Shown piece after piece: positions 20,004-32,553 of a DNA stretch of 64,000 nt (position 1 is its first letter; each line of letters opens with the position of its first letter). Source of the stretch: a virus; IMG/VR virus record IMGVR_UViG_3300025646_000031, positions 6,462 through 70,461 of that record; one strand, given 5' to 3'. The position numbers and the translations under genes are program-made. The notes under the pieces are model-generated. The model saw only the letters and a program-made list of their open reading frames with translations, did not search any database and had not been told where the DNA came from.

Positions 20004-21572
20004 ATGGCAACAGTTATTCAAATTAAAAGATCAACTGGCGTAACCGCTCCTACGACTTCAGACTTATCTGAAGGCGAATTAGCGTATGTTCAGGATAGAT
20101 CAAACTCTGGTGCTGGTGCGAAACTTTATATTGAGTCAGTAGATTCTGATAACAGTACTCCTCTTATTCACGCAATTGGTGGTAAGTACTTTACAGACAT
20201 GCTTGCTGGTACTTCAGCTACTCCTGCAAACTTCAAAGTATCTAACGGTTCAACCTCAGGTGGTTCTGTTCAGTTCTTAGAAGATTCAGACAATGGTACA
20301 AACTTTGTAGCATTGAAAGCTGCAGATTCAATCGCATCTTCACTAACTTTTGTATTGCCTTCTTCAGACGGTAGTGCAAACCAAGTATTAGCAACGGACG
20401 GTTCAGGTAACCTTTCGTTCTTATCAACAACTTCAACTCTTGCTGGTGCAACAGACACAGATATCTCATCACCTACTTCAGGACAAATTATTGTTCATGA
20501 TGGTGTTGATAGTTTTGATAATGTTAGCATCTCAGGAGACGCTACATTAGCTTCAGATGGTACATTGACTATCGCTGCTAACGCTGTTCAAGTAGGAAAC
20601 ATTGACTTCTTAGTTGACGAAGACAACATGGCTTCAGACTCAGATGTTAAAGTTCCAACTCAGCAATCAGTTAAAGCTTATGTTGATGCACAAGTAACAG
20701 CTCAAGACTTAGATGTTTCAGACGGAACTACAGCAATTGATATTGACTTAGATTCTGAAACTCTTTCAATCTTAGGTGGTACTGGTGTAACATCAACTGC
20801 TTCAGGTACAAGTGTCACACTTGCTATCGGTCAGTCAGTTGGTACAACTGATAATGTTCAGTTCAACAATGTTCAAGTTGACGGAACTCTTACTTCAGAT
20901 GACTTAACATCAGCAAACATTACTGCTACAGGTAACTTGACTGTTTCAGGTAACTTGACTGTTAATGGTACAACAACTACTGTAAACTCAACAACTACTT
21001 CAGTTGCTGATCCAGTATTTGAAATCGGTGATGATTCCTCAGACGATAACCTAGATCGTGGTATCAAATTCCTATGGAATGATGGTTCTGCTAAAGTAGG
21101 TTTCTTTGGTATGGATGATTCTGATTCTAAATTCAAATTTATTGCAAACGCAACAGATACCTCTTCAGTATTCTCAGGTTCACTTGGAAATGCTGCTTTC
21201 GGTGGTTTAGAAGCAACAGGACTTGCACTTTCAGGTTCTATTACTTCAGTTGACGGTTCTGCTCCTACTGCTGGACAATTACTCATTGGTAACGGTTCAA
21301 ACGGAGATATGGAACTTGCAACTATTACTGCTGGTGAAGGTATTGATATCACAAATGCTGACGGTGCAATTACAATAGATGCAGAAGTTGCTACATCATC
21401 AAATCTTGGTGTTGCATCATTCGGTGGAAGTTACTTTACAGTAACAGCTGGTGATGTTGCAATCAACGATGCTACAACATCTGCAAAAGGTATTGCTTCT
21501 TTCTCAAGTGATAACTTTACAGTAACCTCAGGTGCTGTAACTGTTACTGCTATAGATGGTGGTACATTCTAA
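20004..21572 (+). CDS. Tail fibre-like protein
   Basis: AGGAG SD; IQIKRS...L.EGELA N-terminus, GNLTV.GTTTTVNS motif, ends IDGGTF. Confidence 0.75.
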   Translation: MATVIQIKRSTGVTAPTTSDLSEGELAYVQDRSNSGAGAKLYIESVDSDNSTPLIHAIGGKYFTDMLAGTSATPANFKVSNGSTSGGSVQFLEDSDNGTNFVALKAADSIASSLTFVLPSSDGSANQVLATDGSGNLSFLSTTSTLAGATDTDISSPTSGQIIVHDGVDSFDNVSISGDATLASDGTLTIAANAVQVGNIDFLVDEDNMASDSDVKVPTQQSVKAYVDAQVTAQDLDVSDGTTAIDIDLDSETLSILGGTGVTSTASGTSVTLAIGQSVGTTDNVQFNNVQVDGTLTSDDLTSANITATGNLTVSGNLTVNGTTTTVNSTTTSVADPVFEIGDDSSDDNLDRGIKFLWNDGSAKVGFFGMDDSDSKFKFIANATDTSSVFSGSLGNAAFGGLEATGLALSGSITSVDGSAPTAGQLLIGNGSNGDMELATITAGEGIDITNADGAITIDAEVATSSNLGVASFGGSYFTVTAGDVAINDATTSAKGIASFSSDNFTVTSGAVTVTAIDGGTF

Positions 21573-21601
21573 TAAAAGTCATCAACTATAGGAGAATATA
21601 A

Positions 21602-22429
21602 ATGGCAACATTAATACAGTTCAAAAGAAGTTCTACTCAAGGGGCTGCACCAAGCACTGGTGACTTGTCTCTTGGAGAATTAGCTGTCAATACTTATCAC
21701 GGTAGATTTTATACCGAGAAAAATGATGGTACAGCTGCTGTTGTGGAAGTAGGATCTAATCCTTCTACACTTACTGTAAATGATGCATTTTCGTTCCCTA
21801 CAAGTGATGGTTCCGCAAACCAAATACTTAAAACAGATGGTTCAGGAACTCTTAGTTGGGCTGACCAACCATCTTCTGGCGTAACAAATTTCACTTACAC
21901 CATTTCATCTACAACAACCTCAATTACAGGTTCAGATGATAATTCACAAACACTTTCCTATACCGCAGGTACAGAACAAGTGTATATCAATGGTGTGAAA
22001 TTAGTCGGAGGTGGTGCAGACTATACTGCTACCAGTTCATCTACAATCACTTTGACAGAGAATGCTCTGAGCGGTGATGTAGTCGAAGTTGTTGCAATTA
22101 CAGAAGCGGCAAACTTAGTACAAGGTTTCTTTACTACAGTTACCACTTCTACAACAACTTCTGATCAGGTACTATCATCAAACGCAGTTGCAAATAAAGC
22201 AATTAAGTATGTTATCAATGCTACACATTCTAGTGCTGGTACACATGCTGCTGAAGTCTTATTGATCAATGATGGTTCAAGTGCATACTTCGTACAATAT
22301 GGCGATGTATACTCTAGTGCTTCATTGTTCACTTTGAGTTCAGATGTAAATTCAGGAAATATGAGATTACTTGTAACTCCTGCCAATACTAATACAACAT
22401 TTGATACATTTCAAATAAGATTAACATAG
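21602..22429 (+). CDS. Fibre-associated structural protein
   Basis: IQFKRS...L.LGELA N-terminus, P.SDG.ANQ.L.TDGSG.LSW motif; C-terminal domain paralogous to 22439. Confidence 0.7.
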   Translation: MATLIQFKRSSTQGAAPSTGDLSLGELAVNTYHGRFYTEKNDGTAAVVEVGSNPSTLTVNDAFSFPTSDGSANQILKTDGSGTLSWADQPSSGVTNFTYTISSTTTSITGSDDNSQTLSYTAGTEQVYINGVKLVGGGADYTATSSSTITLTENALSGDVVEVVAITEAANLVQGFFTTVTTSTTTSDQVLSSNAVANKAIKYVINATHSSAGTHAAEVLLINDGSSAYFVQYGDVYSSASLFTLSSDVNSGNMRLLVTPANTNTTFDTFQIRLT

Positions 22430-22438
22430 GGGTAAAAA

Positions 22439-22849
22439 ATGGCTAAAACAAACGCATTTAAAGTTGCTGAGTTGATTAGAGTGTTTTCTTATGATACATC
22501 TAATGATGTCATTACTACTTCTAAAGAGTTGGATACTAAGCATAGAACATCTACAGCTGCAACATATACTTCTACCACAGAAGTCGCTCTTGATACATTT
22601 GCTCATGCAGATTTCAGAGCTGCAAGATATGTTATTGCAATGTCAGAAGGTGCTAACTATCATTCAACTGAAATAGTATTAGTACATGACGGAAGTACAG
22701 TAACCATGACTCAATATGGTACATTGAAAAATAACAGTGTCGCATCATTTGACGCTGATATCAGTGGATCAGACTTGAGATTACTGATTACACCTGCTTC
22801 AGCAAACAGTACAACAGTTAAGTTTCACAGAACTCTAGTCGGTTCTTAG
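22439..22849 (+). CDS. Structural protein paralogous to the C-terminus of 21602
   Basis: Shared H..E.L...DG....QYG and RLL.TPA pattern. Confidence 0.7.
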   Translation: MAKTNAFKVAELIRVFSYDTSNDVITTSKELDTKHRTSTAATYTSTTEVALDTFAHADFRAARYVIAMSEGANYHSTEIVLVHDGSTVTMTQYGTLKNNSVASFDADISGSDLRLLITPASANSTTVKFHRTLVGS

Positions 22850-22868
22850 AACTTTTTTACAAAAAACG

Positions 22869-22897
22869 AAAGGGGGACTTTATGTCCCCCTTTTTTT
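22869..22897 (+). terminator. Intrinsic terminator
   Basis: AAAGGGGGAC-tttat-GTCCCCCTTT stem with T run. Confidence 0.85.
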
Positions 22898-22910
22898 ACA
22901 TTCTAAATGT

Positions 22911-22918
22911 TATAAATA
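22911..22918 (+). promoter_or_regulatory. Late promoter
   Basis: TATAAATA. Confidence 0.8.
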
Positions 22919-22944
22919 GTTATATTATTTCGGAATAACACAAT

Positions 22945-24957
22945 ATGGCAACTCAAAAAAAATTCATTGCAGACCTAGGATTTGAAACTCCAAGTGATTT
23001 GACTGTAAATGGTAATGCAACCATTGATGGAAATGCAACTGTAACAGGAAATCTTACTGTTAACGGAACATCAACCACAGTTAACTCAACCACTACATCT
23101 GTAACAGACTCAATGATTGAGCTTGCGAATGCGAATACAGGTTCAGATACACTTGATATTGGTATATACGGAAACTATGATGATGGTTTATCAGATGGTG
23201 GTGCAAGTGAATACACAGGTTTATTCAGAGATGCTTCAGACTCAACTTGGAAACTCTTTGATGGTTTAGAAGAAGAACCTACCACAACAGTCAATACAGC
23301 AGGAACAGGTTACGCAAAAGCAGCCTTAGAAGTTGGCGATCTATCTTGTACTACACTTACTGCAACTAACAGTCTTACAGGTGCAAGTATTACCTACCCA
23401 ACCTCAGACGGCACTGCTGGACAGTTTTTACAAACTGATGGAAGTGGAACATTATCATTTACTTCTGTTACAAGTTATTCTGATTCAGATGTAGAATCAT
23501 ACTTAGATGGTGGAACATCAACCCCTATTTTAGCAAATGCAACATTTGGTGGAATGAAACTTTTAAACCAAGCGGGCGGTGGTTCTATAGGATTAAATAG
23601 AGACCCTGCTGATGGCAATTATGTTGGTTCTGCAAGTTTACAAAGATTCCAAATCAACGGCCCACAAAGTGGTTCAGACTTTTTAGATTTTCAATCTTAT
23701 AACAGCAGTGGAACATATACAGGAAGTTTTTATCTAAATGCTGGCAAGCTTGGTATAGGCACAAACGCTCCTGACGATTTGCTTCATGTCTATGCAGGAA
23801 ATTCAGGAGCTACACCACATAGTCTCTCAGCAATGAATATTGAAAGTAGTTCAGATGTTGCAATGAATTTCCTAACTCCAAATACATCTCAAGCACAAAT
23901 AAGATTTGCAGACCCACAAGACGATGGAAAAGGCATTATTGGTTATAATCACAATGGTGATTACATGTTTTTTGCAACCAATGGGCCTGAGAAAATGAGA
24001 CTAAATTCTGACGGAAATCTCGGCGTTGGTATATCTACCATAGAACAACTCGGTTCAGATAGTGTATACCCAAGAATACAATCATATAGTTCCGATACAT
24101 CAGGACATTTCTGTGGATTGATGATTGGTCGTCCTAATTCACCAGGACTTGAATCATCAATGGCATTTACTGTTGGCGGAATTATGGTTGGAAAGATACA
24201 ACATGACTATGTTGCAGAAAATCATAACGATATGTCATTTCACCTTAGAGGTTCTTCAGGAGGTGGAGATATAGAGGTAATGAGACTGTGGGCTGGTTCA
24301 GGTAATGATACAGCTTTATTGGTAGGTAGAACAACAAGGTCTTGGGCTAATGCAGCTTTAGAAGTAGAAAGTAATGCAAGAATAGGAAACATATACCTAA
24401 CTGGTAGTGGTTCAGACAGCACAATATCAGCAGGTAATGCAAGCTATAAATTTAGCACAGCAACTGTAAATTGTGGTGCAACTGATTTAGATTTTGATGT
24501 AAATGTTGTAGTAACTGGTGTAGGAATCGCAAATAGATTTAAAGTTGATTCCCCAACTGGTGATACATATACAAATGATGGAACAATATCCTCATTATCA
24601 GATATAAGAGTTAAAACAGATATAAATGATTTGACAGATGGTCTTGAAATAGTAAAACAATTAAGGCCAGTTACTTTTAAATATAACGATAATTCAACAG
24701 ATGATGATGGAAATGGTATGTTGGCAGCTGCAGACGATAAAATTCGTTATGGATTTATTGCACAAGAGGTAGAAGAAGTTGCTCCTCATTATGTAGAAAC
24801 ATCAACAAGAAAAATAAACAATGAAGAAGTTAATGATTTTAAATCTTTATCAACAACAAGAATGATACCTATGTTATTTAAAGCCATCCAAGAACAACAA
24901 ACCATCATTGAAGACCTCAAAGCAAGAATAGAAACATTAGAGAACGCAAATTCGTAA
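22945..24957 (+). CDS. Tail fibre/spike with C-terminal peptidase S74 intramolecular chaperone
   Basis: LGIGT..P...LHV and EKMRL...GNLGVG repeats; S/DIRVKTDI...L.PV.F.Y...GFIAQEV...coiled-coil C-terminus. Confidence 0.85.
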   Translation: MATQKKFIADLGFETPSDLTVNGNATIDGNATVTGNLTVNGTSTTVNSTTTSVTDSMIELANANTGSDTLDIGIYGNYDDGLSDGGASEYTGLFRDASDSTWKLFDGLEEEPTTTVNTAGTGYAKAALEVGDLSCTTLTATNSLTGASITYPTSDGTAGQFLQTDGSGTLSFTSVTSYSDSDVESYLDGGTSTPILANATFGGMKLLNQAGGGSIGLNRDPADGNYVGSASLQRFQINGPQSGSDFLDFQSYNSSGTYTGSFYLNAGKLGIGTNAPDDLLHVYAGNSGATPHSLSAMNIESSSDVAMNFLTPNTSQAQIRFADPQDDGKGIIGYNHNGDYMFFATNGPEKMRLNSDGNLGVGISTIEQLGSDSVYPRIQSYSSDTSGHFCGLMIGRPNSPGLESSMAFTVGGIMVGKIQHDYVAENHNDMSFHLRGSSGGGDIEVMRLWAGSGNDTALLVGRTTRSWANAALEVESNARIGNIYLTGSGSDSTISAGNASYKFSTATVNCGATDLDFDVNVVVTGVGIANRFKVDSPTGDTYTNDGTISSLSDIRVKTDINDLTDGLEIVKQLRPVTFKYNDNSTDDDGNGMLAAADDKIRYGFIAQEVEEVAPHYVETSTRKINNEEVNDFKSLSTTRMIPMLFKAIQEQQTIIEDLKARIETLENANS

Positions 24958-25046
24958 AAAACTTCCCTAAAACATATCGTTTGAAGAGTAAGACTTACTA
25001 AATACATGTGTATATACCCAAAAACATTTTTTAGGACACACTAAAC

Positions 25047-25280
25047 ATGGCAACACAAAACAAATTTGTTATCGAATACGGACTTAGTGTAGGTTCTACA
25101 GAAGTAATCACATCTTCAGGTAAAATCGTTGCAGCTGCAATCTCAGACTTAGACACAGACGATCTTTCAGAAGGTTCTACAAATGTTTACTTCTCGACCT
25201 CCAGAGTCGATACTCATCTAGCAGACGGAACTGCATCAAAAACATTAAACAATGTTCAGATTGATGGAGGCACACTATAA
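25047..25280 (+). CDS. Miniature fibre-module protein
   Basis: N-terminus paralogous to 25280 (GSTEVI.SSGKI); DTDDLSEGSTN.YF motif; ends IDGGTL. Confidence 0.7.
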   Translation: MATQNKFVIEYGLSVGSTEVITSSGKIVAAAISDLDTDDLSEGSTNVYFSTSRVDTHLADGTASKTLNNVQIDGGTL

Positions 25281-26752
25281 TGGCAGGCGAAAAGAATTTC
25301 GTAGTTAAGAATGGTATTTCAATCGGTTCAACCGAAGTCATATCATCTTCAGGTAAAATTGCAGCTGCAGCTTTATCATCAAATACAGATTTCACAGAAC
25401 AGGTACAAGATATTGTCGGTGCTTTTATCACAGGAACAGGTTCAACAACAGTAACCTACAACGATGCTGGTGATGCACTTACAATCTCATCAACAGGTAA
25501 AACCGAAGAAGAAATCCAAGATATCGTTGGTGCTCAGTTAGTAACTAACGGTTCACATACAAATATCACTGCATCTTATGATGATGCTGGTGATGGTGCT
25601 ATTGATCTTTCTATTTCAGACGCAACTATTCAATCTAAGATTACTGCTGGAACTGGTGTGTCGGTTTCAAGTGGTCAAGTTAGTATCGGTCAGGCAGTAG
25701 GAACTTCAGATTCGCCCACATTTGCAGGTATGACACTTACAGGTGCATCAACAGTTTCAGGACATATTCTTCCTAGTGCTGATGTTACCTACGACTTAGG
25801 TTCAGCATCGTATCAATGGCGAGATGTCTATGTTGGTCCAGGATCTTTGTATGTTAACGGACAAAAGGTATTAGAAGATAACTCAGGAACAATTGTTGTT
25901 TCTGCTGATTCAGATCAGAATCTTCAGATAAAAACTGCTGGTAGTGGTGACATTGAGTTTAATCCATCAGGCACAGGTATTATTCAAGCAAAAGGTACAC
26001 TTCAAATGCTTGATGGTGAGTTAATCACTAACAGTGCTGGTAACAATGTTGCATTCGGAAACAATATCAGTGTAGATCAGATCGCTTCAAGAAGTGCAGA
26101 CACTAACTTAGTATTGAGTGGTAATGGAACAGGTAATGTTACACTTAATGATTCAGTTGTAATCACAGGTGACCTTACAGTTTCAGGAACTACAACTACT
26201 GTTAACTCAGAGACAATCAACCTTGCAGATAACATTCTAAACCTAAACTCTGATTTCACTTCAGGTGTACCAACACAGGATGCAGGTTTAAGTATCTCAA
26301 GAGGTGGTTCAGCAGCAAAAACATTCTTATGGGATGAGACTAACGATAGATGGACAGTCGGTTCAGAATCTATGGTCGCAGGAACATTCATTGGTAACCT
26401 AACTGGTGCAGTCACAGGTAATGCATCTACTGCTTCTGCTCTTTCAAGTGCAGTAACAGTTTCACTTTCAGGTGATGCTTCAGGTAGTGCAACATTTACA
26501 AGTGCAGGAGATACTGCTTCAATATCGGTTACAGTTGCAGATGATTCACACAATCATATTATCGGAAATGTAGATGGACTACAAGCAGCTTTAGATGCAA
26601 AATATGGTAGTGGTTCTAATGCAACACTAGGTACAATAACAACAAGTAACGCAAGTAATTCAGGCGGATATGTAAGAAATATTTACCAATCAACATCAAC
26701 TCCAGGTTCTGGTGATGGTGCAGTTGGTGATTTGTGGATATATTATTCTTAA
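25280..26752 (+). CDS. Fibre-like structural protein (cassette 2 anchor)
   Basis: QDIVGA repeats, GDLTVSGTTTTVNS, H.H motif, C-terminal STP....GDLW. Confidence 0.75.
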   Translation: MAGEKNFVVKNGISIGSTEVISSSGKIAAAALSSNTDFTEQVQDIVGAFITGTGSTTVTYNDAGDALTISSTGKTEEEIQDIVGAQLVTNGSHTNITASYDDAGDGAIDLSISDATIQSKITAGTGVSVSSGQVSIGQAVGTSDSPTFAGMTLTGASTVSGHILPSADVTYDLGSASYQWRDVYVGPGSLYVNGQKVLEDNSGTIVVSADSDQNLQIKTAGSGDIEFNPSGTGIIQAKGTLQMLDGELITNSAGNNVAFGNNISVDQIASRSADTNLVLSGNGTGNVTLNDSVVITGDLTVSGTTTTVNSETINLADNILNLNSDFTSGVPTQDAGLSISRGGSAAKTFLWDETNDRWTVGSESMVAGTFIGNLTGAVTGNASTASALSSAVTVSLSGDASGSATFTSAGDTASISVTVADDSHNHIIGNVDGLQAALDAKYGSGSNATLGTITTSNASNSGGYVRNIYQSTSTPGSGDGAVGDLWIYYS

Positions 26753-26781
26753 TACTAAATAAGAATAATTAGTGAGGATAA

Positions 26782-28047
26782 ATGGTAACAGGTAATCAAA
26801 AGGTTAAGACCCCTACTGGTTGGAATTCCACGCAAGGTGCATGGGTTAAAACAGGTGCTACTACTTGGAAAGCAGTAGAACAAATCTATGTAAAAACGCC
26901 TACTGGTTGGAACAACGCTTCAGGTCAAGCATTAACACAACAACCATATCCTTATATAGCGAATGCTCAACAACCTTATATTGCTAATGCACAGCAACCT
27001 TATCCATATATAGCAAACGCCCAGCAACCTTATATCGCTAACGCTCAACAGCCTTATCCCTATATAGCGAATGCTCAGACACCCTATATCGCTAACGCTC
27101 AACAGCCTTATCCGTATATAGCAAACAGTCAGACACCATTCACATATCAAGCGAGGTCACCGTTTACATATAGTAATAGATATCCTGCAAATGCTCAGCA
27201 ACCTTACATTGCAAACAGTCAGACTCCATTTACATATAATAATAGATCGCCGTTTACATATAGTGCAAGATATCCTGCTAACGCTCAACAACCTTATATT
27301 GCAAACGCAAGACAACCGTTTACATATAATAATAGATCACCGTTTACATATAATGCAAGATATCCTGCTAACGCACAGCAACCGTACATAGCTAATGCTA
27401 GACAACCTGGCACATATCAGGTTCCTTTCAGTTATCGTGTTCCATACATCGCTAACGCTAGACAACCTGGCACATATCAAGTACCGTTTTCTTATCGAGT
27501 GCCTTATATTGCGAATGCTCAACAACCATTTACATATAGTTTTAGATTTCCATTCCTTTATCAATCAGCATTCCAGAAATTTGGATTTCAGGGTTGTTTC
27601 TTATGTTGTGTACATGATACTATGTTGGTGGCAACTGAGGAAGATATGAAAAGTATTTACGATTTAAATATAGGTGATAAAGTCATTTCACATAATTTTG
27701 AAACTGGACAAGATGAAGTAGTAGAAATAACCGATATCGTAATTGTTGATAGAGATGTAGATTACAAAGTCAACGATCTGATTATGACAGAAGACCATCC
27801 AGTTTACTTAGAGGGTGGCAGAAAAGCTTCAGTAAATCCTGATGCAACACTTTTAAACTACAAGCAAGAAGTTGATCAGTTAGTTGTTGGTGATAAAATG
27901 ATGAAACTTGATGGTTCATTAGAAGAAATTACTTCTATAGAACATTATGAGGGAAATCATAAAAACTTTGCAGTTCAAACCAAGTATAATAATTTCTACG
28001 CAAATGGACATTTGGTAGATTCAGTCATTGATAGAGGTAATAACTAA
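26782..28047 (+). CDS. Pro/Tyr/Gln repeat protein A2 with C-terminal Hint domain
   Basis: GAGG SD; three VKT...W motifs; 26 repeat units; Hint blocks CCVHDTMLV, L.IGDKV, TEDHP and NFYANGHLV. Confidence 0.85.
   Translation: MVTGNQKVKTPTGWNSTQGAWVKTGATTWKAVEQIYVKTPTGWNNASGQALTQQPYPYIANAQQPYIANAQQPYPYIANAQQPYIANAQQPYPYIANAQTPYIANAQQPYPYIANSQTPFTYQARSPFTYSNRYPANAQQPYIANSQTPFTYNNRSPFTYSARYPANAQQPYIANARQPFTYNNRSPFTYNARYPANAQQPYIANARQPGTYQVPFSYRVPYIANARQPGTYQVPFSYRVPYIANAQQPFTYSFRFPFLYQSAFQKFGFQGCFLCCVHDTMLVATEEDMKSIYDLNIGDKVISHNFETGQDEVVEITDIVIVDRDVDYKVNDLIMTEDHPVYLEGGRKASVNPDATLLNYKQEVDQLVVGDKMMKLDGSLEEITSIEHYEGNHKNFAVQTKYNNFYANGHLVDSVIDRGNN
26944..27549 (+). repeat. Coding tandem repeat (A2)
   Basis: Unit lengths in aa: 10,8,10,8,10,8,10,8,8,6,8,8,8,6,8,8,8,6,8,6,6,8,6,6,8,8. 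Confidence 0.9.
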
Positions 28048-28739
28048 TGCCAATAGCTGAAGGACAACAACCAACGATTGGAAATGCTAGGAGCCCTTTC
28101 ACCTATGAGGCGAGGTATCCAGCGATTGCTTACTATCCTGCTAACTATCAGAATCCGTTTACTTACGATGCTAGATATCCAGCGATTGCTTTCTATCCTG
28201 CTAACTATCAGAATCCGTTTACTTACAATGCTAGGTCGCCGTTTACTTATCGTGTGCCTTATATAGCAAATGCTCAACAACCATATATAGCTAACGGACA
28301 AAACCCATTTACTTATAACGCTAGATCACCGTTTACTTATCGAGTGCCTTATATTGCGAATGCTCAACAACCATACATAGCAAACGCTAGACAGCCTGGC
28401 ACATATAATGCTAGATCACCTTTTACCTATCAGGTTCCATACATTGCGAATGCTCAACAACCATACATAGCAAACGCTAGACAACCTGCAACATATCAAG
28501 CGCAAGGTAGAACTCCGTTCACATATCAGAACAGACAACCTTCTACATATGAAACACAAGGTAGAACTCCGTTCACATATCAGAACAGATCACCGTTCAC
28601 TTATGCTACACAAGGTAGAACTCCGTTCACATATCAGAACAGAACTCCGTTCACTTATGCTACACAAGGTAGAACACCAGTTGCTCGTTGGGATGGTGTG
28701 TTGACACAGCAGTGGCCTGCAACACCTGTATCTTCTTAG
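28047..28739 (+). CDS. Pro/Tyr/Gln repeat protein B2
   Basis: GAGGT SD; TAATG coupling to A2; almost entirely repeat. Confidence 0.85.
   Translation: MPIAEGQQPTIGNARSPFTYEARYPAIAYYPANYQNPFTYDARYPAIAFYPANYQNPFTYNARSPFTYRVPYIANAQQPYIANGQNPFTYNARSPFTYRVPYIANAQQPYIANARQPGTYNARSPFTYQVPYIANAQQPYIANARQPATYQAQGRTPFTYQNRQPSTYETQGRTPFTYQNRSPFTYATQGRTPFTYQNRTPFTYATQGRTPVARWDGVLTQQWPATPVSS
28071..28676 (+). repeat. Coding tandem repeat (B2), mirror of A2
   Basis: Unit lengths in aa: 8,8,6,6,8,6,6,8,6,8,8,8,6,8,8,8,6,8,8,10,8,10,8,10,8,10. Confidence 0.9.
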
Positions 28740-28742
28740 TGA

Positions 28743-28750
28743 TATAAATA
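28743..28750 (+). promoter_or_regulatory. Late promoter for the enzyme cluster
   Basis: TATAAATA. Confidence 0.75.
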
Positions 28751-28780
28751 TTATTATTAATCAATAATTTATTATGAAAA

Positions 28781-30379
28781 ATGACAGAGAAAAAAATACC
28801 TACTTGGAAAAGAAATCTAATTAGAATTACTTCTGTAGAAGAAGCAGAACAAATCAAACCATTAGATTATTCAAATAATTCCATTTTTAAATTACGAATG
28901 GATTTACCCACCTATCATTTGGGAACTCTATGTATCAATCGTTATTCAGATTATAACGAAACTTACAAAATACTGAAGTATCTTTTTGAAAACAAAATCT
29001 TACCACCTTTGAAAATTTTTAAATGGGGTGATGTAATTGCTGATCGAAAAGAAAAAAGATTGGCTTCTTTTAATGGTTTGAATTATCACTCAATGGTCTA
29101 TAACAGATTTCTACCTCATGGTTGGACATCTAAACCAGACCCAAAATATATTGGTGGTATGAATTTCCAATCAATTGATGGTGACGATAAGACCATACAT
29201 GATTATTGTATGGAAAAAGACGATCCGTACTACAACGATCAGGGCTGGTTAACTTCTTTAAATGCTTCTTACTATCATTCTGCTAAAGCACACTGGTTAG
29301 TTCATAGTATTCAAAAGGAAGGACTATGGGCGCCTGTTCAAGGATTGACATCAGGTACAAAAGAACGATACAGTATTTTCGCACATCCAGGTTCTATCAG
29401 ATCAGCTATTGTAGAAGAGATGCAAGATCCAGATTTAGTATGGCATGTTTGGGATTGTGTTGGTGTTATACCAACTGAACCAAAAACAGTTGATGAGTTT
29501 CTTCAGTTTTGGAAAGAAGTTTTAAATAAAAAAAATGTAAAACAAGATGAAATGTCTTTTATAATACAGGCAGGAGCAATTGAAGTACAAACAGATTTAG
29601 CAAGTTTAGAGTTTAGAAATGAAATATATGATTTCAATAAAAAGGTTTCAAAACTTGCAAAGAAAAAACCATTAAACATTTACATTGGTTATGATTCAAC
29701 ACACAATGATATAGAAAAGATTTCAAAATATTCTATAGAAGAATCTATTAAGAGAAATTTTTCAGGCGGCAATGATGGTAAGTATACACAATTTGTTCCT
29801 GAAATAAAAATGCTTGACATTTCTAAGATTCCAGAATATACTAGACCTTATGCAAATCAAAATACAGAGTTTACTTATAGTAGATTTTTAATTCCGTATT
29901 TAGAAAATTATGAAGGATTTAGCATCTTTGTAGATGATGATTTCATCTTTAATAAAACTATATTGTCATTGTTATATTACTTACATCCAGATGATGCAGT
30001 TGCATGTATTCAATATCCACAATACAAACATGATAACACTAAATTTGTTGGTGCAGTTAACATAGATTATCCAAGAAAACTATGGTCTAGTATGATGGTC
30101 TTTAATAATGGACATGAAGACTGCAAAAAACTAACACCTGAAACAATAAATACTTGGACAGGAAAACAGTTACATCAATTTGAATGGACTGAAAAGATCA
30201 GTAAGATACCTGAAAAATATATCTTTACTGAAGGTTATGATGATCCTGAAACTAAGTGGGATGTTTCAGGTTATCATTATACAAGAGGTGGTCCTTGGAT
30301 TGACGATATGGACTGTTCAAAAATTTCTAGGTTAGAAGTTTATGAAAAATTTAAAACGCTTTATGAAAGTGAGAGGTAA
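28781..30379 (+). CDS. GT-A fold glycosyltransferase (GT8/CDI-like) with an additional N-terminal domain
   Basis: IYIGYD, TEFTYSRFLIP, FVDDDF (DxD), YPRK.WSS and HYTRGGPW motifs in the C-terminal half. Confidence 0.8.
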   Translation: MTEKKIPTWKRNLIRITSVEEAEQIKPLDYSNNSIFKLRMDLPTYHLGTLCINRYSDYNETYKILKYLFENKILPPLKIFKWGDVIADRKEKRLASFNGLNYHSMVYNRFLPHGWTSKPDPKYIGGMNFQSIDGDDKTIHDYCMEKDDPYYNDQGWLTSLNASYYHSAKAHWLVHSIQKEGLWAPVQGLTSGTKERYSIFAHPGSIRSAIVEEMQDPDLVWHVWDCVGVIPTEPKTVDEFLQFWKEVLNKKNVKQDEMSFIIQAGAIEVQTDLASLEFRNEIYDFNKKVSKLAKKKPLNIYIGYDSTHNDIEKISKYSIEESIKRNFSGGNDGKYTQFVPEIKMLDISKIPEYTRPYANQNTEFTYSRFLIPYLENYEGFSIFVDDDFIFNKTILSLLYYLHPDDAVACIQYPQYKHDNTKFVGAVNIDYPRKLWSSMMVFNNGHEDCKKLTPETINTWTGKQLHQFEWTEKISKIPEKYIFTEGYDDPETKWDVSGYHYTRGGPWIDDMDCSKISRLEVYEKFKTLYESER

Positions 30380-30385
30380 AATAAA

Positions 30386-30952
30386 ATGAATATGAATACA
30401 GTGAATGCACTTGTGTATTGTGAAAACTCAAATCTCTATATTAGAAAACCTAATGGTTTAGAATATCAATTTGATAATGTTGATGCTCCTGCATTGGGTT
30501 TTGACTTTGATGTTTTAATCTACGAAGATGGATTAGAAACAAAGATATTAAAATGGAACGATGGTAAACCATTGCAGGAACAAGAACAATTTCCTTTATC
30601 AGACAATGAAAAGGACATGATTGAAACTTATATTGCAAATTCAGAACCGCCTGAAGGTGTCACTTTACAAAGACAATATGTTGAAAGATTAGAAAAAATT
30701 GCCGATGAATATGTCGACAGGTATATGTATCAACATAATTTTCGTGATTTAAACAAAGTTGTAGCAATTGGTAGAGAAGGATCAAATCATCCAAATAGAT
30801 CAGATGCTAGAAGAGTATTGGAGTATTTTGATGCAGTTTCAACTGTATTCATACAGGTTGTAGATCAAATCTATTCTTGTAGAGAAGATATGTTAAAAGA
30901 ATTCAGAGAATATGAAGTTCTTCTTCCTACTATTGTTAATCAATATGAATAA
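30386..30952 (+). CDS. Hypothetical protein, possibly tail-fibre-assembly-like
   Basis: GAGGT SD; helical C-terminus loosely resembles phage fibre assembly proteins (recalled, not searched). Confidence 0.45.
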   Translation: MNMNTVNALVYCENSNLYIRKPNGLEYQFDNVDAPALGFDFDVLIYEDGLETKILKWNDGKPLQEQEQFPLSDNEKDMIETYIANSEPPEGVTLQRQYVERLEKIADEYVDRYMYQHNFRDLNKVVAIGREGSNHPNRSDARRVLEYFDAVSTVFIQVVDQIYSCREDMLKEFREYEVLLPTIVNQYE

Positions 30953-31694
30953 AGAACTAGATGTAGTTCTAATAGATAAACCATTTGATATAAAAGAACT
31001 ACCCCTAAAATCAGTTTATGTTTTAGATGATTGGTTGTGTGATTCATTACACCATTATTTTGATAATTGGGTAACAAAAAACCAAATATGGGCAAAAACA
31101 AATCAAGTAGATTCACATAGTAAAACTGGTTTACCACATCATAGTTTTTGGGGTACATCCTTCTTAAGAGACGATTTTCAATCAGAGCCTGGTATTGGGA
31201 AAGAAAATACCTTTTTTGTTAAATACATAATAAGAAGATTACAAACAGAGTTTAGTTTTAAATGGACCAGATTTCAGTATGCTGGCATGAATTCCCAAAC
31301 AGTAGGTTTACACGGCACAACACATTCGGATTGTCAAGATGAAGATGATTGGAATCTATCATTTCTATACTATACAAATAGATATTGGAACCCTAAATGG
31401 GGTGGTAAATTAAGATTGTATGATAAAGTTGTTCAGTCGCCTGAACATGATGATATGATGCAAGGTGTACACGGCAGAACAGAACACATTAAAAACTATC
31501 AAATTGCAGAAGTGGATTTCAAACCTAATAGGCTTGTAATGTTTGATGGTAGAATACCTCACGGAGCTGATGCTCCAAATGAAAGCGCTAAATACATGGA
31601 TAGAAGATCGCTAGTGATAAGAGGCGATGAAGTTAGACTAATTAAAGATAAAAAAGAGTTTTATAATGCCAACGATAGAGTTCACTTGTTATAA
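30945..31694 (+). CDS. 2OG-Fe(II) oxygenase
   Basis: H-S-D, WGG.L, FKPNRLVMFDG.IPH...R motifs. Confidence 0.85.
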   Translation: MNKELDVVLIDKPFDIKELPLKSVYVLDDWLCDSLHHYFDNWVTKNQIWAKTNQVDSHSKTGLPHHSFWGTSFLRDDFQSEPGIGKENTFFVKYIIRRLQTEFSFKWTRFQYAGMNSQTVGLHGTTHSDCQDEDDWNLSFLYYTNRYWNPKWGGKLRLYDKVVQSPEHDDMMQGVHGRTEHIKNYQIAEVDFKPNRLVMFDGRIPHGADAPNESAKYMDRRSLVIRGDEVRLIKDKKEFYNANDRVHLL

Positions 31695-32553
31695 TTCTGA
31701 TACAGTAAAGTATTTTAAACCTGTACTTGCTAAAACTGTTTTACCAGATTGGTGGAAAACCATGAAGATACAGGAAATGACAAGATTTACAAAACAACAT
31801 ACAATACGATCCTGCCCAGCGATGGACGATTGGGTGAAATCTGGTTGGTATCTAGTTGCAAATAAAGATATAAGAGTCATTTGCGGAAAAGATAGAGATG
31901 GACAAGATACAGATAGTGAAAGTTATTCAACTGAAGATACGGAAGGAACTGGTTATTCATCGCCTCCACATCCAAGAGAACAATTTGGCAATGTATTCAA
32001 TTTCTTAGGAAAAAATAGAGCACCTATTAGAGATGCTTTTAAGATGAAGAATCCTTGGAATGTAATCACACCAAAGGGATATTCTTGTTTTTATATAGAT
32101 CCATTTTTACATCAAAACGAATTCTTTGCAACTTGGCCTGGCATTATAGATACAGACAAGTTTAATAAAAATATGGACAATGCACAAATCATTTTTTATC
32201 CTAAGGTAGATCATTCATTCACGATTTTAAAAGGCACGCCATTATGTCAGATCATTCCTTTTAAGAGAGAGGAATGGGTTGCAAGTTATCAATTTAGAGA
32301 TGTAAATGATTACATTAAAAATTTATCTCATATAACTTCGGAACAAAAAAATATGGATGAAAGACCTATGATAGAACACAAAAGAATGGCGCCAGATACA
32401 AATATTTTTAAAGCAGGACCTTATCGTAAACATGGATATTGGAGTGAAAAGGGCCAATATTTCAAGGAAGAAAGTCCACCACCTGAATGTCCTTTTCATA
32501 AAAAAGAAGAAAGTTCAGAGATACAATTGGAGTTTGATTTCAATGGCAGTTAG
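31666..32553 (+). CDS. Hypothetical beta-rich protein (DUF6065-like) of the type found beside phage oxygenases
   Basis: TIRSCPAM.D...GW, K..NPW...TPKGYS, PGIIDTD and KGTPLCQIIPFKRE.W motifs. Confidence 0.6.
   Translation: MPTIEFTCYNSDTVKYFKPVLAKTVLPDWWKTMKIQEMTRFTKQHTIRSCPAMDDWVKSGWYLVANKDIRVICGKDRDGQDTDSESYSTEDTEGTGYSSPPHPREQFGNVFNFLGKNRAPIRDAFKMKNPWNVITPKGYSCFYIDPFLHQNEFFATWPGIIDTDKFNKNMDNAQIIFYPKVDHSFTILKGTPLCQIIPFKREEWVASYQFRDVNDYIKNLSHITSEQKNMDERPMIEHKRMAPDTNIFKAGPYRKHGYWSEKGQYFKEESPPPECPFHKKEESSEIQLEFDFNGS

What the first reader, a model, noticed from the sequence alone, without database searches (positions are those of the whole stretch)
27592..28047. Hint domain lacking the C-terminal His-Asn at the predicted tip of stalk 2
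Seen: after the repeats come GCFLCCVHDTMLV (block A Cys), TEDHP (block B TxxH) and NFYANGHLVDS, where splicing inteins have VHN. Established: Hint domains with Cys and TxxH but no terminal Asn can do N-terminal thioester cleavage without splicing, as in Hedgehog. Inference: it self-removes after assembly, or ligates a nucleophile to the new stalk tip. Speculatively the nucleophile could be the B2 N-terminus, which the mirror register places next to this site, or a host surface molecule.
Basis: partly seen in the sequence, partly recalled or inferred. Interest (0 to 1): 0.75.

Follow-up and report, generated by a model that had tools for sequence, protein, structure and literature searches.

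The report
Self-cleaving Hint cap on phage fibre
The last 146 residues of a repeat-rich fibre protein of a marine T4-like phage form a genuine intein-like (Hint) domain that keeps the residues needed to cut itself off but has lost those needed for splicing, and it behaves as a swappable, probably self-removing cassette.

Summary
ORF 26782..28047 (A2, 421 aa) ends in a Hint domain (Cys276–Ser414). Pfam gives only sub-threshold hits to six Hint-clan families. An AlphaFold2 model is confident (pLDDT 87), and Foldseek places it among BIL domains, inteins and Hedgehog (best 6e-11).

- **Conservation:** Cys1, T-x-D-H and the NFY…LV motif occur in 64 of 64 close homologues. All 64 have Asp-Ser where inteins have His-Asn, and all stop 5–9 residues later. 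Splicing and Asn-driven C-cleavage are therefore excluded.
- **Cassette behaviour:** 82% nucleotide identity to an unrelated phage protein covers only 27600–28036.
- **Orthologues:** among 71 loci with an A gene visible, 33 A proteins have no Hint, 15 have a different His-Asn Hint, 22 have another C-terminal domain, and 1 has this type.

Best reading (0.65) is autocatalytic N-terminal cleavage that sheds the Hint and leaves a 31-kDa fibre protein. Ligation to B2 or a host molecule is not supported but not excluded (about 0.12). I rate it a new variant of a known kind, of moderate interest. Nothing was tested biochemically.

The parts
26782..28047 (+). A2 precursor ORF, 421 aa, 47.9 kDa
26782..26931 (+). 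Conserved N-terminal beta-rich region (res 1-50, 'VKTPTGWN' twice), shared with all A orthologues. It is presumably the virion-attachment end.
   Evidence: AF2 gives strands at pLDDT 58-68. The attachment role is inferred.
26936..27527 (+). Tandem repeat arrays of the passenger: 54-nt (QQPYPYIANAQQPYIANA), 90-nt and 60-nt units
   Evidence: No confident monomer fold.
27595..27606 (+). N-extein junction C272-F-L-C275 (CxxC at -4..-1). The predicted scissile bond is C275|C276.
   Evidence: C..CC present in 63 of 64 close homologues and absent from distant relatives. A2 has only these three Cys.
27607..28023 (+). Hint domain, C276 to S414
   Evidence: AF2 pLDDT >90 over the core. Foldseek to BIL2, CthBIL, gp41-1, Hedgehog and Vint.
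27607..27609 (+). Cys276 = Hint residue 1, the predicted nucleophile
   Evidence: Invariant. Cys in 140 of 145 full domains of the wider family.
27787..27798 (+). Block B, T336-E-D-H339
   Evidence: T-x-D-H in 64 of 64 homologues. T 137 and H 143 of 145 in the wider family.
27991..28023 (+). Block F/G motif NFYANGHLV, ending in D413-S414 where inteins have His-Asn
   Evidence: Aligns to NFVANGLLV of the Spl DnaX mini-intein, stopping 2 residues before that chain's end. DS in 64 of 64.
28024..28047 (+). 7-residue tail VIDRGNN plus stop; there is no C-extein. Codons R418-G419 contain GAGG (28034-28037), 9 nt before the B2 start.
   Evidence: Reading GAGG as a Shine-Dalgarno site is an inference.
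27600..28036 (.). DNA cassette shared with an unrelated phage protein (L004) at 82% nt identity; flanks are unrelated
28047..28739 (+). B2, 230 aa repeat protein. Its start overlaps the A2 stop (TAATG). No Lys, no Cys.
   Evidence: The A/B pair is conserved in 79 viral loci.

Best explanation
A2 is made as a 47.9-kDa precursor: a conserved N-terminal region, a Lys-free Pro/Tyr/Asn/Gln-rich repeat shaft, and a C-terminal Hint (intein-like) autoprocessing cassette. After the Hint folds, Cys276 attacks the carbonyl of Cys275 (N-to-S acyl shift, helped by Thr336 and His339 of block B). The resulting thioester is resolved by water or a small thiol. This releases the mature 31.4-kDa fibre protein (residues 1-275, ending ...GCFLC) and a free acidic 16.5-kDa Hint.

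The terminal Asn is replaced (Asp413-Ser414) and only 7 residues follow, so no succinimide formation, C-terminal cleavage or splicing can occur. The cassette is a mobile, interchangeable, self-removing module. Its benefit is not resolved. It could be a folding or solubility cap for a basic, aggregation-prone shaft, analogous to the S74 intramolecular chaperone on the neighbouring fibre gene. It could be a conserved 3' recombination handle. Or it could be a tolerated selfish passenger.

Shown: the sequence, the fold, the conservation, and the cassette and orthologue pattern. Inferred: every chemical step and the fate of the Hint.
For: - **Fold:** pLDDT 87.3. Foldseek to BIL2 6y75 gives 6e-11, followed by CthBIL 2lwy, the gp41-1 intein, Hedgehog 1at0 and Vint 8r2c. 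88 BFVD matches at E<=0.001 include phage 'Hint domain containing' proteins.
- **Catalytic residues under selection:** Cys1 motif 64/64, T-x-D-H 64/64, NFY 64/64, Asp-Ser 64/64, tails of 5-9 aa, at 47-91% identity.
- **Wider family** (4934 representatives at E<=1e-3). In the 145 full domains examined, Asn-less ends are almost always terminal: DS has <=15 aa after the domain in 23 of 26, and HS in 12 of 14. HN domains have a median of 194 aa after them.
- **Passengers differ.** 47 of 65 belong to an unrelated 'MALP..' class and 15 are repeat-rich. One Hint is fused to a lambda gpI-like tail assembly protein.
- **Cassette boundaries:** 82% nt identity to L004 only over 27600-28036. The orthologue L038 matches the passenger and B2 but not the Hint.
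- **Orthologous A proteins** (71 loci with A visible): 33 end in a short G-rich tail with no Hint, 15 carry a different His-Asn Hint, 22 carry another ~160-aa domain, and 1 carries Hint-DS. The mature shaft therefore works without a Hint.
- **Charge contrast:** passenger pI 9.8 against Hint pI 4.4.
- **Chemistry:** review passages state that Hint domains without the C-terminal apparatus perform N-terminal cleavage.
Against: - There is no biochemical or proteomic evidence of cleavage for any member.
- No isolate phage in the 50,697-record collection carries the domain (tblastn E<=1), so no virion mass spectrometry exists to consult.
- Pfam scores are all below the gathering cut-offs.
- In the weak profile alignment to the DnaX intein (E 0.99), the position aligned with the intein's 'YDIEV' Asp is Ala. 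If that Asp matters for the acyl shift (recalled role), activity could be reduced.
- Invariant Asp413-Ser414-Val415 and the conserved C..C at -4/-1 imply a function that simple hydrolysis does not explain.
- The closest solved structure, BIL2, ligates its N-extein to lysines rather than merely cleaving.
Confidence: 0.65

Rival explanations
1. Thioester capture (ligation). The Cys275 thioester made by the Hint is attacked by an amine or hydroxyl instead of water. Candidates are the alpha-amine of B2, joining A2 and B2 head-to-tail, a lysine of another virion protein, or a host-surface molecule. The result would be a covalent adduct at the new fibre end.
For: - The best structural match, BIL2 of the Tetrahymena BUBL locus, conjugates its N-extein to lysines without ATP.
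- Type A BILs ligate through a free alpha-amine.
- A2 and B2 are translationally coupled (TAATG), and their repeat periods are mirrored (54/90/60 against 60/90/54 nt).
- B2 has no Lys, so its N-terminus is its only amine.
- The invariant DSV and the CxxC at -4/-1 are unexplained by plain hydrolysis.
Against: - The same cassette precedes unrelated downstream genes, including small membrane proteins, in other phages.
- 33 of 71 A/B loci have no Hint at all.
- B N-termini differ between the two Hint-DS lineages.
- There is no nucleophile-recruiting region such as the Hedgehog sterol-recognition region; only 7 residues follow the Hint.
- The absence of Lys is a property of the repeats generally, not specific to Hint-bearing loci.
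Confidence: 0.12
2. Retained, non-cleaving domain. The Hint fold stays on the mature protein as a structural or receptor-binding tip, and its intein-like residues have no catalytic role.
For: - It lies at the C-terminal, hypervariable end of the A family, where 22 of 71 orthologues carry a ~160-aa non-repeat domain instead.
- Non-catalytic uses of the Hint fold are imaginable. The recurrent AXH Pfam hits (29 of 30 members) hint at a similarity to a non-catalytic module.
Against: - Cys1, Thr and His of block B are invariant across 47-91% identity and near-invariant in the wider family.
- A receptor-binding tip would not be expected to be shared at 82% nt identity by unrelated phages while the rest of the protein differs.
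- Orthologues function without it.
Confidence: 0.1
3. Decaying intein or BIL relic. It would be a formerly splicing His-Asn element, like those of the A orthologues, that lost Asn and is now inert or only partly active.
For: Orthologous A proteins carry His-Asn Hints at the same site. The tails of those Hints resemble the tails of Hint-less A proteins, so a splicing ancestor at this site is plausible.
Against: - The window's Hint is not derived from the orthologues' Hint. That region barely aligns and is instead 82-84% identical to a cassette on other passengers.
- Asp-Ser is fixed in 64 of 64 homologues. Asn-less terminal forms make up a large, conserved clade, which indicates selection rather than decay.
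Confidence: 0.05

Closest known systems
Bacterial intein-like (BIL) domains, types A and B (Amitai et al. 2003; seen only as described in review passages)
   Same: Hint fold with a Cys1 nucleophile and TxxH, and no +1 nucleophile. They sit in hypervariable, non-conserved secreted or structural proteins, and auto-cleavage dominates over splicing. The solved BILs (6y75, 2lwy) are the top structural matches.
   Different: Type A ends in His-Asn; this domain ends in Asp-Ser. Type B is said to lack similarity to block G; this domain keeps the block F/G motif NFYANG.LV. This one lies at the extreme C-terminus of a phage fibre protein with a 7-residue tail.
BIL2 of the Tetrahymena thermophila BUBL1 polyubiquitin locus (PDB 6Y75/6TMM)
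   Same: Best Foldseek hit (E 6e-11, TM 0.74/0.82, 20% identity). It makes a thioester at Cys1.
   Different: BIL2 has a C-terminal Asn (the crystallised mutant is C1A-N143A) and is flanked by ubiquitin-like domains. It transfers its N-extein to lysines. No such flanks or targets are seen here.
Hedgehog C-terminal autoprocessing (Hog) domain (PDB 1AT0)
   Same: A C-terminal Hint without terminal Asn that performs only the N-terminal thioester reaction and releases the N-terminal product. Foldseek E 9.7e-6.
   Different: Hedgehog carries a sterol-recognition region after the Hint and uses cholesterol as the nucleophile. Here only 7 residues follow the Hint.
Peptidase_S74 intramolecular chaperone of phage tail fibres and endosialidases
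   Same: A self-cleaving C-terminal module on phage fibre proteins. One sits on the neighbouring fibre gene 22945..24957 (Pfam E 7.7e-17). It is the functional analogy for a removable assembly cap.
   Different: The fold and chemistry are unrelated (a Ser-Lys protease, recalled). A2 has no S74 match.
His-Asn Hint domains on orthologous A proteins of related marine myophages (e.g. L038, L048, L068)
   Same: The same host protein and the same C-terminal site after the repeat shaft, followed by the B gene.
   Different: They form a different Hint lineage (CF.AGT.., TGGHP, VLVHN plus a 4-7 aa tail) and reach Pfam thresholds (Vint 32.5, Hint 31.4, Intein_splicing 45.1). They keep Asn, so they could cleave at both ends or splice to the short tail.
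PT-HINT pretoxin domains of polymorphic toxins
   Same: Weak Pfam similarity. They are autoproteolytic Hints in long filamentous or repeat proteins (abstract and tables).
   Different: PT-HINT lies upstream of a C-terminal toxin domain that it releases. Nothing lies downstream here.

Membership tests
Hint (Hedgehog/intein) superfamily | Hint fold | tested here: met
   AF2 pLDDT 87.3. Foldseek found 53 PDB matches at E<=0.001, and all printed rows are BILs, inteins, Hedgehog or Vint.
Hint (Hedgehog/intein) superfamily | Block A N-terminal Cys/Ser nucleophile and block B T-x-x-H | tested here: met
   C276 and T336/H339 are invariant in 64/64 homologues and in alignments A1 and A2.
Hint (Hedgehog/intein) superfamily | Score above the gathering threshold of a Pfam Hint-clan model | tested here: not met
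   Best scores on the domain alone: Hint_2 19.1 against 28.4, Intein_splicing 17.8 against 35.8, Vint 16.8 against 27, Hint 16.1 against 29.7, PT-HINT 15.7 against 27.7.
Class 1 intein | C-terminal Asn (usually His-Asn) for succinimide formation | tested here: not met
   Asp413-Ser414 at the aligned positions. DS in 64/64 homologues.
Class 1 intein | C-extein starting with Cys/Ser/Thr, and insertion inside a conserved host protein | tested here: not met
   Only VIDRGNN follows, then the stop. The B2 frame is closed by TAA two codons before its ATG, so there is no fusion by frameshift.
Type A BIL | Conserved C-terminal His-Asn without a +1 nucleophile | tested here: not met
   There is no His-Asn. 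The orthologues' Hints do meet this feature.
Type B BIL | Intein motifs present except the C-terminal motif; cleavage uncoupled from splicing | tested here: inconclusive
   The definition was seen only in review passages. No type B reference sequences or model were at hand. This domain retains most of block G, which fits poorly.
Hedgehog/Hog | Sterol/adduct-recognition region after the Hint | tested here: not met
   Seven residues follow S414. Tails are 5-9 aa in 64/64 homologues.
Any autoprocessing Hint | Demonstrated Cys1-dependent cleavage | not testable with these tools
   This needs expression and mass spectrometry.
Peptidase_S74 intramolecular chaperone | Match to PF13884 | tested here: not met
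   A2 has no hit. The neighbouring ORF 22945..24957 has one.

The most novel reading that the evidence does not exclude
The Asn-less Hint is not merely shed. It would arm the fibre end with a Cys275 thioester, perhaps relayed to Cys272 as a thiolactone through the conserved C-x-x-C. That group would then be captured by an amine. The target could be the single amine of the Lys-free partner B2, which would fuse A2 and B2 head-to-tail into a mirrored hairpin fibre. Or it could be a host-surface molecule, giving covalent adsorption. Either would be the first Hint-driven protein ligation in virion assembly or host attachment.
Probability: 0.12. Interest if true: 0.85.

Novelty: new variant of a known kind. 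Interest (0 to 1): 0.55.

Why it matters
- **A second kind of self-removing cap.** If cleavage is confirmed, phage fibres would have a second, chemically distinct self-removing C-terminal module besides the S74 chaperone. It is built on intein chemistry and is widespread in marine phages: 4934 representative proteins match the profile.
- **Unusual natural contrasts.** The cassette moves between unrelated fibre genes. The same fibre protein also occurs with an Asn-less Hint, with a His-Asn Hint, or with none. These contrasts can be used to ask what such a domain contributes: folding, solubility, recombination, or nothing.
- **Possible tools.** Natural, compact, N-cleaving-only Hint domains may be useful for making protein C-terminal thioesters.
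- **Annotation.** Pfam misses this clade at its thresholds, so many phage 'hypothetical proteins' could be reannotated.

Tried and rejected
- **Complex prediction** on three copies of the Hint domain, testing a trimeric chaperone-like assembly, returned 'no answer' (score 0.00). It is not used as evidence either way.
- **Full-length A2 model with 34 sequences.** The repeats got pLDDT 32-41 and no secondary structure. This says nothing about a 'stalk'.
- **phmmer of the domain alone against PDB** gave only two chance lectin hits (E 0.37 and 1.4). The profile search was needed.
- **Isolate phage collection.**
  - Megablast of 22000-32000 found no match.
  - tblastn of A2 found only a repeat match in a mycobacteriophage.
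  - tblastn of the Hint alone found no match at E<=1.
- **PHROGs** gave nothing useful for A2 or B2.
- **Frameshift or read-through fusion of A2 to B2** is rejected. B2 is in another frame, and that frame has a TAA two codons before its ATG.
- **C275 as the nucleophile** is rejected. Distant relatives have a single Cys, and it aligns with C276.
- **Literature.**
  - Searches found no paper describing a C-terminal Asn-less Hint on phage fibre proteins.
  - One search found no paper linking AXH and Hint.
  - The library holds open-access papers only, and supplementary files were not consulted.
  - One search failed on term syntax and was not repeated.

Full report
**Context.** The window lies in a 70,461-base viral record estimated to be 39% complete. 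All genes are on the + strand and G+C is about 35%. PHROG matches identify a T4-like myophage: baseplate wedge, neck, terminase, sheath, portal and scaffold. The portal protein is 57% identical to those of Methylophilales phage Melnitz and Pelagibacter phage Mosig.

The finding lies at the end of a block of fibre genes running from 20004 to 28739. One of them, 22945..24957, ends in a Peptidase_S74 intramolecular chaperone. The block is followed by non-structural genes.

**The observation.**
- a 50-residue N-terminal region;
- tandem repeats at 26936-27527, with units of 54, 90 and 60 nt;
- a short linker ending in G271-C-F-L-C-C276;

A2 has only three cysteines: 272, 275 and 276.

**Is it a Hint domain?** Sequence models alone are equivocal.
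- Pfam gives only sub-threshold hits, but they fall on Vint, Hint_2, Hint, PT-HINT and Intein_splicing.
- Among 30 aligned family members scanned one by one, 13, 11, 10, 5 and 4 hit Vint, PT-HINT, Hint_2, Hint and Intein_splicing respectively at E<=0.1.
- A profile of the family against all PDB sequences returned three hits at E<=10, all inteins. They aligned the block A region to gp41-1 and the block F/G region (NFYAnGiLV against NFVANGLLV) to the Spl DnaX mini-intein.

Structure settles it.
- An AF2 model of residues 255-421, built with a 30-sequence alignment, has pLDDT 87.3 and pTM 0.81.
- Foldseek against PDB gives BIL2 of Tetrahymena BUBL1 (E 6e-11, TM 0.74/0.82). Next come the Clostridium thermocellum BIL, gp41-1, DnaB and DnaE inteins, the Hedgehog autoprocessing domain and a Vint domain.
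- BFVD returns many phage proteins labelled as containing a Hint domain, some combined with collagen or fibronectin repeats.
- The protein-language-model atlas agrees.

**Catalytic inventory.**
- A search restricted to residues 268-421 found 64 homologues at 47-91% identity, all from metagenomes.
- In all 64 the Cys1 motif C-[VI]-H-x-x-M, T-x-D-H and NFY are present. The two residues aligned with the intein His-Asn are Asp-Ser. The protein stops 5-9 residues later.
- C276 is invariant. C272 and C275 occur as C-x-x-C-C in 63 of 64. More distant relatives replace them with a Gly-rich linker and a single Cys, which aligns with C276. C276 is therefore residue 1 of the Hint, and C275 is the -1 residue.
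- Those distant relatives end in His-Ser or Asp-Ser, never in Asn.

With no Asn and no C-extein, succinimide formation, C-terminal cleavage and splicing are excluded. Only the N-terminal acyl shift and thioester resolution remain. That is the chemistry described for Hedgehog and for cleavage-only BILs in the review passages I read.

**The wider family.** A 10-sequence domain profile matched 4934 representative proteins at E<=1e-3, with 927 at <=1e-10. I re-analysed the 150 listed plus 11 earlier proteins. That gave 299 domain hits in 151 proteins, of which 145 domains cover both ends.
- Cys occupies position 1 in 140 of 145. Thr and His of block B occur in 137 and 143.
- 77 domains end in His-Asn and mostly lie inside longer proteins (median 194 residues after the domain). 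They are often in head-to-tail arrays such as '..VHN-K-C|CF..'.
- Asn-less domains are almost always at the very end of the protein: DS in 23 of 26, HS in 12 of 14, and the rarer pairs likewise.

Loss of Asn thus goes with terminal position, and the terminal Asn-less form is a conserved clade rather than decay.

**A mobile cassette.** The passengers in front of this Hint are unrelated.
- Of 65 close family members, 47 share a 'MALP..' N-terminus typical of a protein encoded after large S74-bearing fibre genes in other phages. 15 are repeat-rich like A2, and 3 are different again.
- One relative is a lambda gpI-like tail assembly protein (phrog_32), encoded between gpK-like and gpJ-like genes.
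- At the DNA level, the window and locus L004 (a different phage type with a different passenger) share 82% identity only over 27600-28036, which is the CxxCC junction plus the Hint. The flanks do not match.

**Orthologues of A2.** B2 (28047..28739) retrieved 146 matching stretches, of which 79 loci were kept. They define a conserved A/B gene pair in marine myophages. A has the N-terminus M-[AV]-[ST]-G-x-Q-x-VKTP, and B has the C-terminus RQGRTPV-x-RWDG..QQWPATP.

A is not visible in 8 loci because the contigs are cut. Among the other 71:
- 33 A proteins (20 distinct tails) end shortly after the repeats in a Gly-rich tail such as ..PFGGGGGFNSYMPLFDQR, with no Hint;
- 22 (11 distinct) carry a non-repeat domain of about 160 aa;
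- 15 (11 distinct) carry a different Hint, 'GGGG|CF.AGT', 'TGGHP', 'VLVHN' plus a 4-7-residue tail with no +1 nucleophile;
- 1 carries the Asp-Ser type. That locus is on the same contig as L001.

The His-Asn Hints reach Pfam thresholds (L038: Vint 32.5 against 27 and Hint 31.4 against 29.7; L068: Intein_splicing 45.1 against 35.8). The window's A2 aligns well with L038's A through residue 270, and hardly at all in the Hint.

So the same fibre protein exists without a Hint, with a type-A-BIL-like Hint, or with the Asn-less cassette. The mature shaft evidently does not need the Hint, which is what one expects of a module that removes itself. The short tails after His-Asn (GYYGKH, GGGKK, MFKK) resemble the ends of the Hint-less proteins. 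This suggests that those elements splice or cleave to regenerate a similar C-terminus. That last step is inference.

**Mechanism proposed.**
1. The precursor is 47.9 kDa.
2. The Hint folds.
3. Cys276 attacks the Cys275 carbonyl.
4. The thioester is resolved by water or a thiol.
5. The products are a 31.4-kDa basic shaft protein (pI 9.8) and a 16.5-kDa acidic Hint (pI 4.4).

Everything after the fold is inferred from family knowledge.

Why the cassette is kept is open. It could be a solubility or folding cap, in parallel with the S74 chaperone next door. It could be a conserved 3' homology arm that eases exchange of tip modules. Or it could be an intein-like selfish passenger, whose catalytic residues are maintained because failure to cleave would damage the host protein. 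Conservation cannot separate these three.

**The ligation idea.**

For it:
- BIL2, the closest structure, transfers its N-extein to lysines.
- Type A BILs ligate through a free alpha-amine.
- The A2 stop overlaps the B2 start (TAATG).
- The repeat periods of A2 and B2 are mirrored.
- B2 has no lysine, so its N-terminus is its only amine.
- The invariant Asp-Ser-Val and the C-x-x-C at -4/-1 lack an explanation.

Against it:
- The cassette is followed by unrelated genes elsewhere.
- Nearly half of the A/B loci lack any Hint.
- B N-termini differ between the two Hint-DS lineages.
- No adduct-recognition region exists.
- Lysine-free repeats are general to the family.

I give it about 0.12.

**Limits.**
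- No biochemistry exists, and no isolate phage carries the domain.
- Model coordinates could not be inspected.
- Only 150 of the 4934 profile hits were returned.
- Monomer modelling of the repeats was uninformative.
- The homotrimer test gave no answer.
- The literature statement rests on an open-access library, without supplementary files.

**Verdict.** It is a real, conserved, Asn-less C-terminal Hint cassette on a phage fibre protein, most likely self-cleaving. I rate it a new variant of a known kind.

Noticed in passing
window 26782-28739 and loci L026-L104: A2 and B2 belong to a conserved two-gene repeat-protein system of marine T4-like myophages. 146 stretches matched and 79 loci were kept. 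The order of repeat periods is mirrored: A2 has 54/90/60 nt and B2 has 60/90/54 nt. In five loci the gene order is B then A.
   Followed up: partly
L038:2703-4001, L048:2571-4001, L068:2648-3952, L094:2475-3986 and others: Orthologues of A2 carry a different Hint ending in VLVHN plus a 4-7-residue tail (GYYGKH, GGGKK, ISTK, MQKR). It has no +1 Cys/Ser/Thr, so it is like a type A BIL. The tails resemble the C-termini of Hint-less orthologues, as if the element splices or cleaves near the extreme C-terminus.
   Followed up: partly
L015:2941-4239: The same Hint family, ending ..ILVSWVDSR, is fused to a lambda gpI-like tail assembly protein (phrog_32). The gene lies between a gpK-like gene and a gpJ-like gene of more than 1370 aa.
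   Followed up: no
proteins P0073, P0074, P0087, P0111, P0116: Long proteins hold head-to-tail arrays of 3-7 His-Asn Hint domains joined by 1-5 residues ('VHN-K-C|CF', 'VHN-KGGGG|CF'). A Cys at position -1 is common in the wider family (66 of 145 domains). Some arrays end in an Asn-less terminal Hint.
   Followed up: no
window 27736-27909 (res 319-376): The best Pfam hit is the AXH module of ataxin-1/HBP1 (E 5.7e-4, below threshold). It recurs in 29 of 30 family members (best 1.9e-6) and covers the TEDHP..GD region. No paper linking AXH and Hint was found, so it is unexplained.
   Followed up: partly
window 28034-28037: GAGG lies 9 nt upstream of the B2 start, inside the codons for R418-G419 of the Hint tail. 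Conservation of 'RG' in the tail may therefore reflect the ribosome-binding site of the downstream gene.
   Followed up: no
window 22945-24957: The neighbouring 670-aa fibre protein ends in a Peptidase_S74 intramolecular chaperone domain (Pfam E 7.7e-17). Two chemically different self-cleaving C-terminal modules may therefore sit in one fibre gene cluster.
   Followed up: no
window 28047-28739 and 26782-27606: B2 has no Lys and no Cys (pI 9.9). The A2 passenger is also basic (pI 9.8), with Lys only in the first 38 residues and at position 266. The Hint is acidic (pI 4.4).
   Followed up: no
L052-L091 (22 loci): In these orthologues the A protein ends in a non-repeat domain of about 156-170 aa (e.g. 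..SLALF..LRIDVTK). A gap of about 300 nt precedes the B gene. This may be a receptor-binding tip and was not characterised.
   Followed up: no
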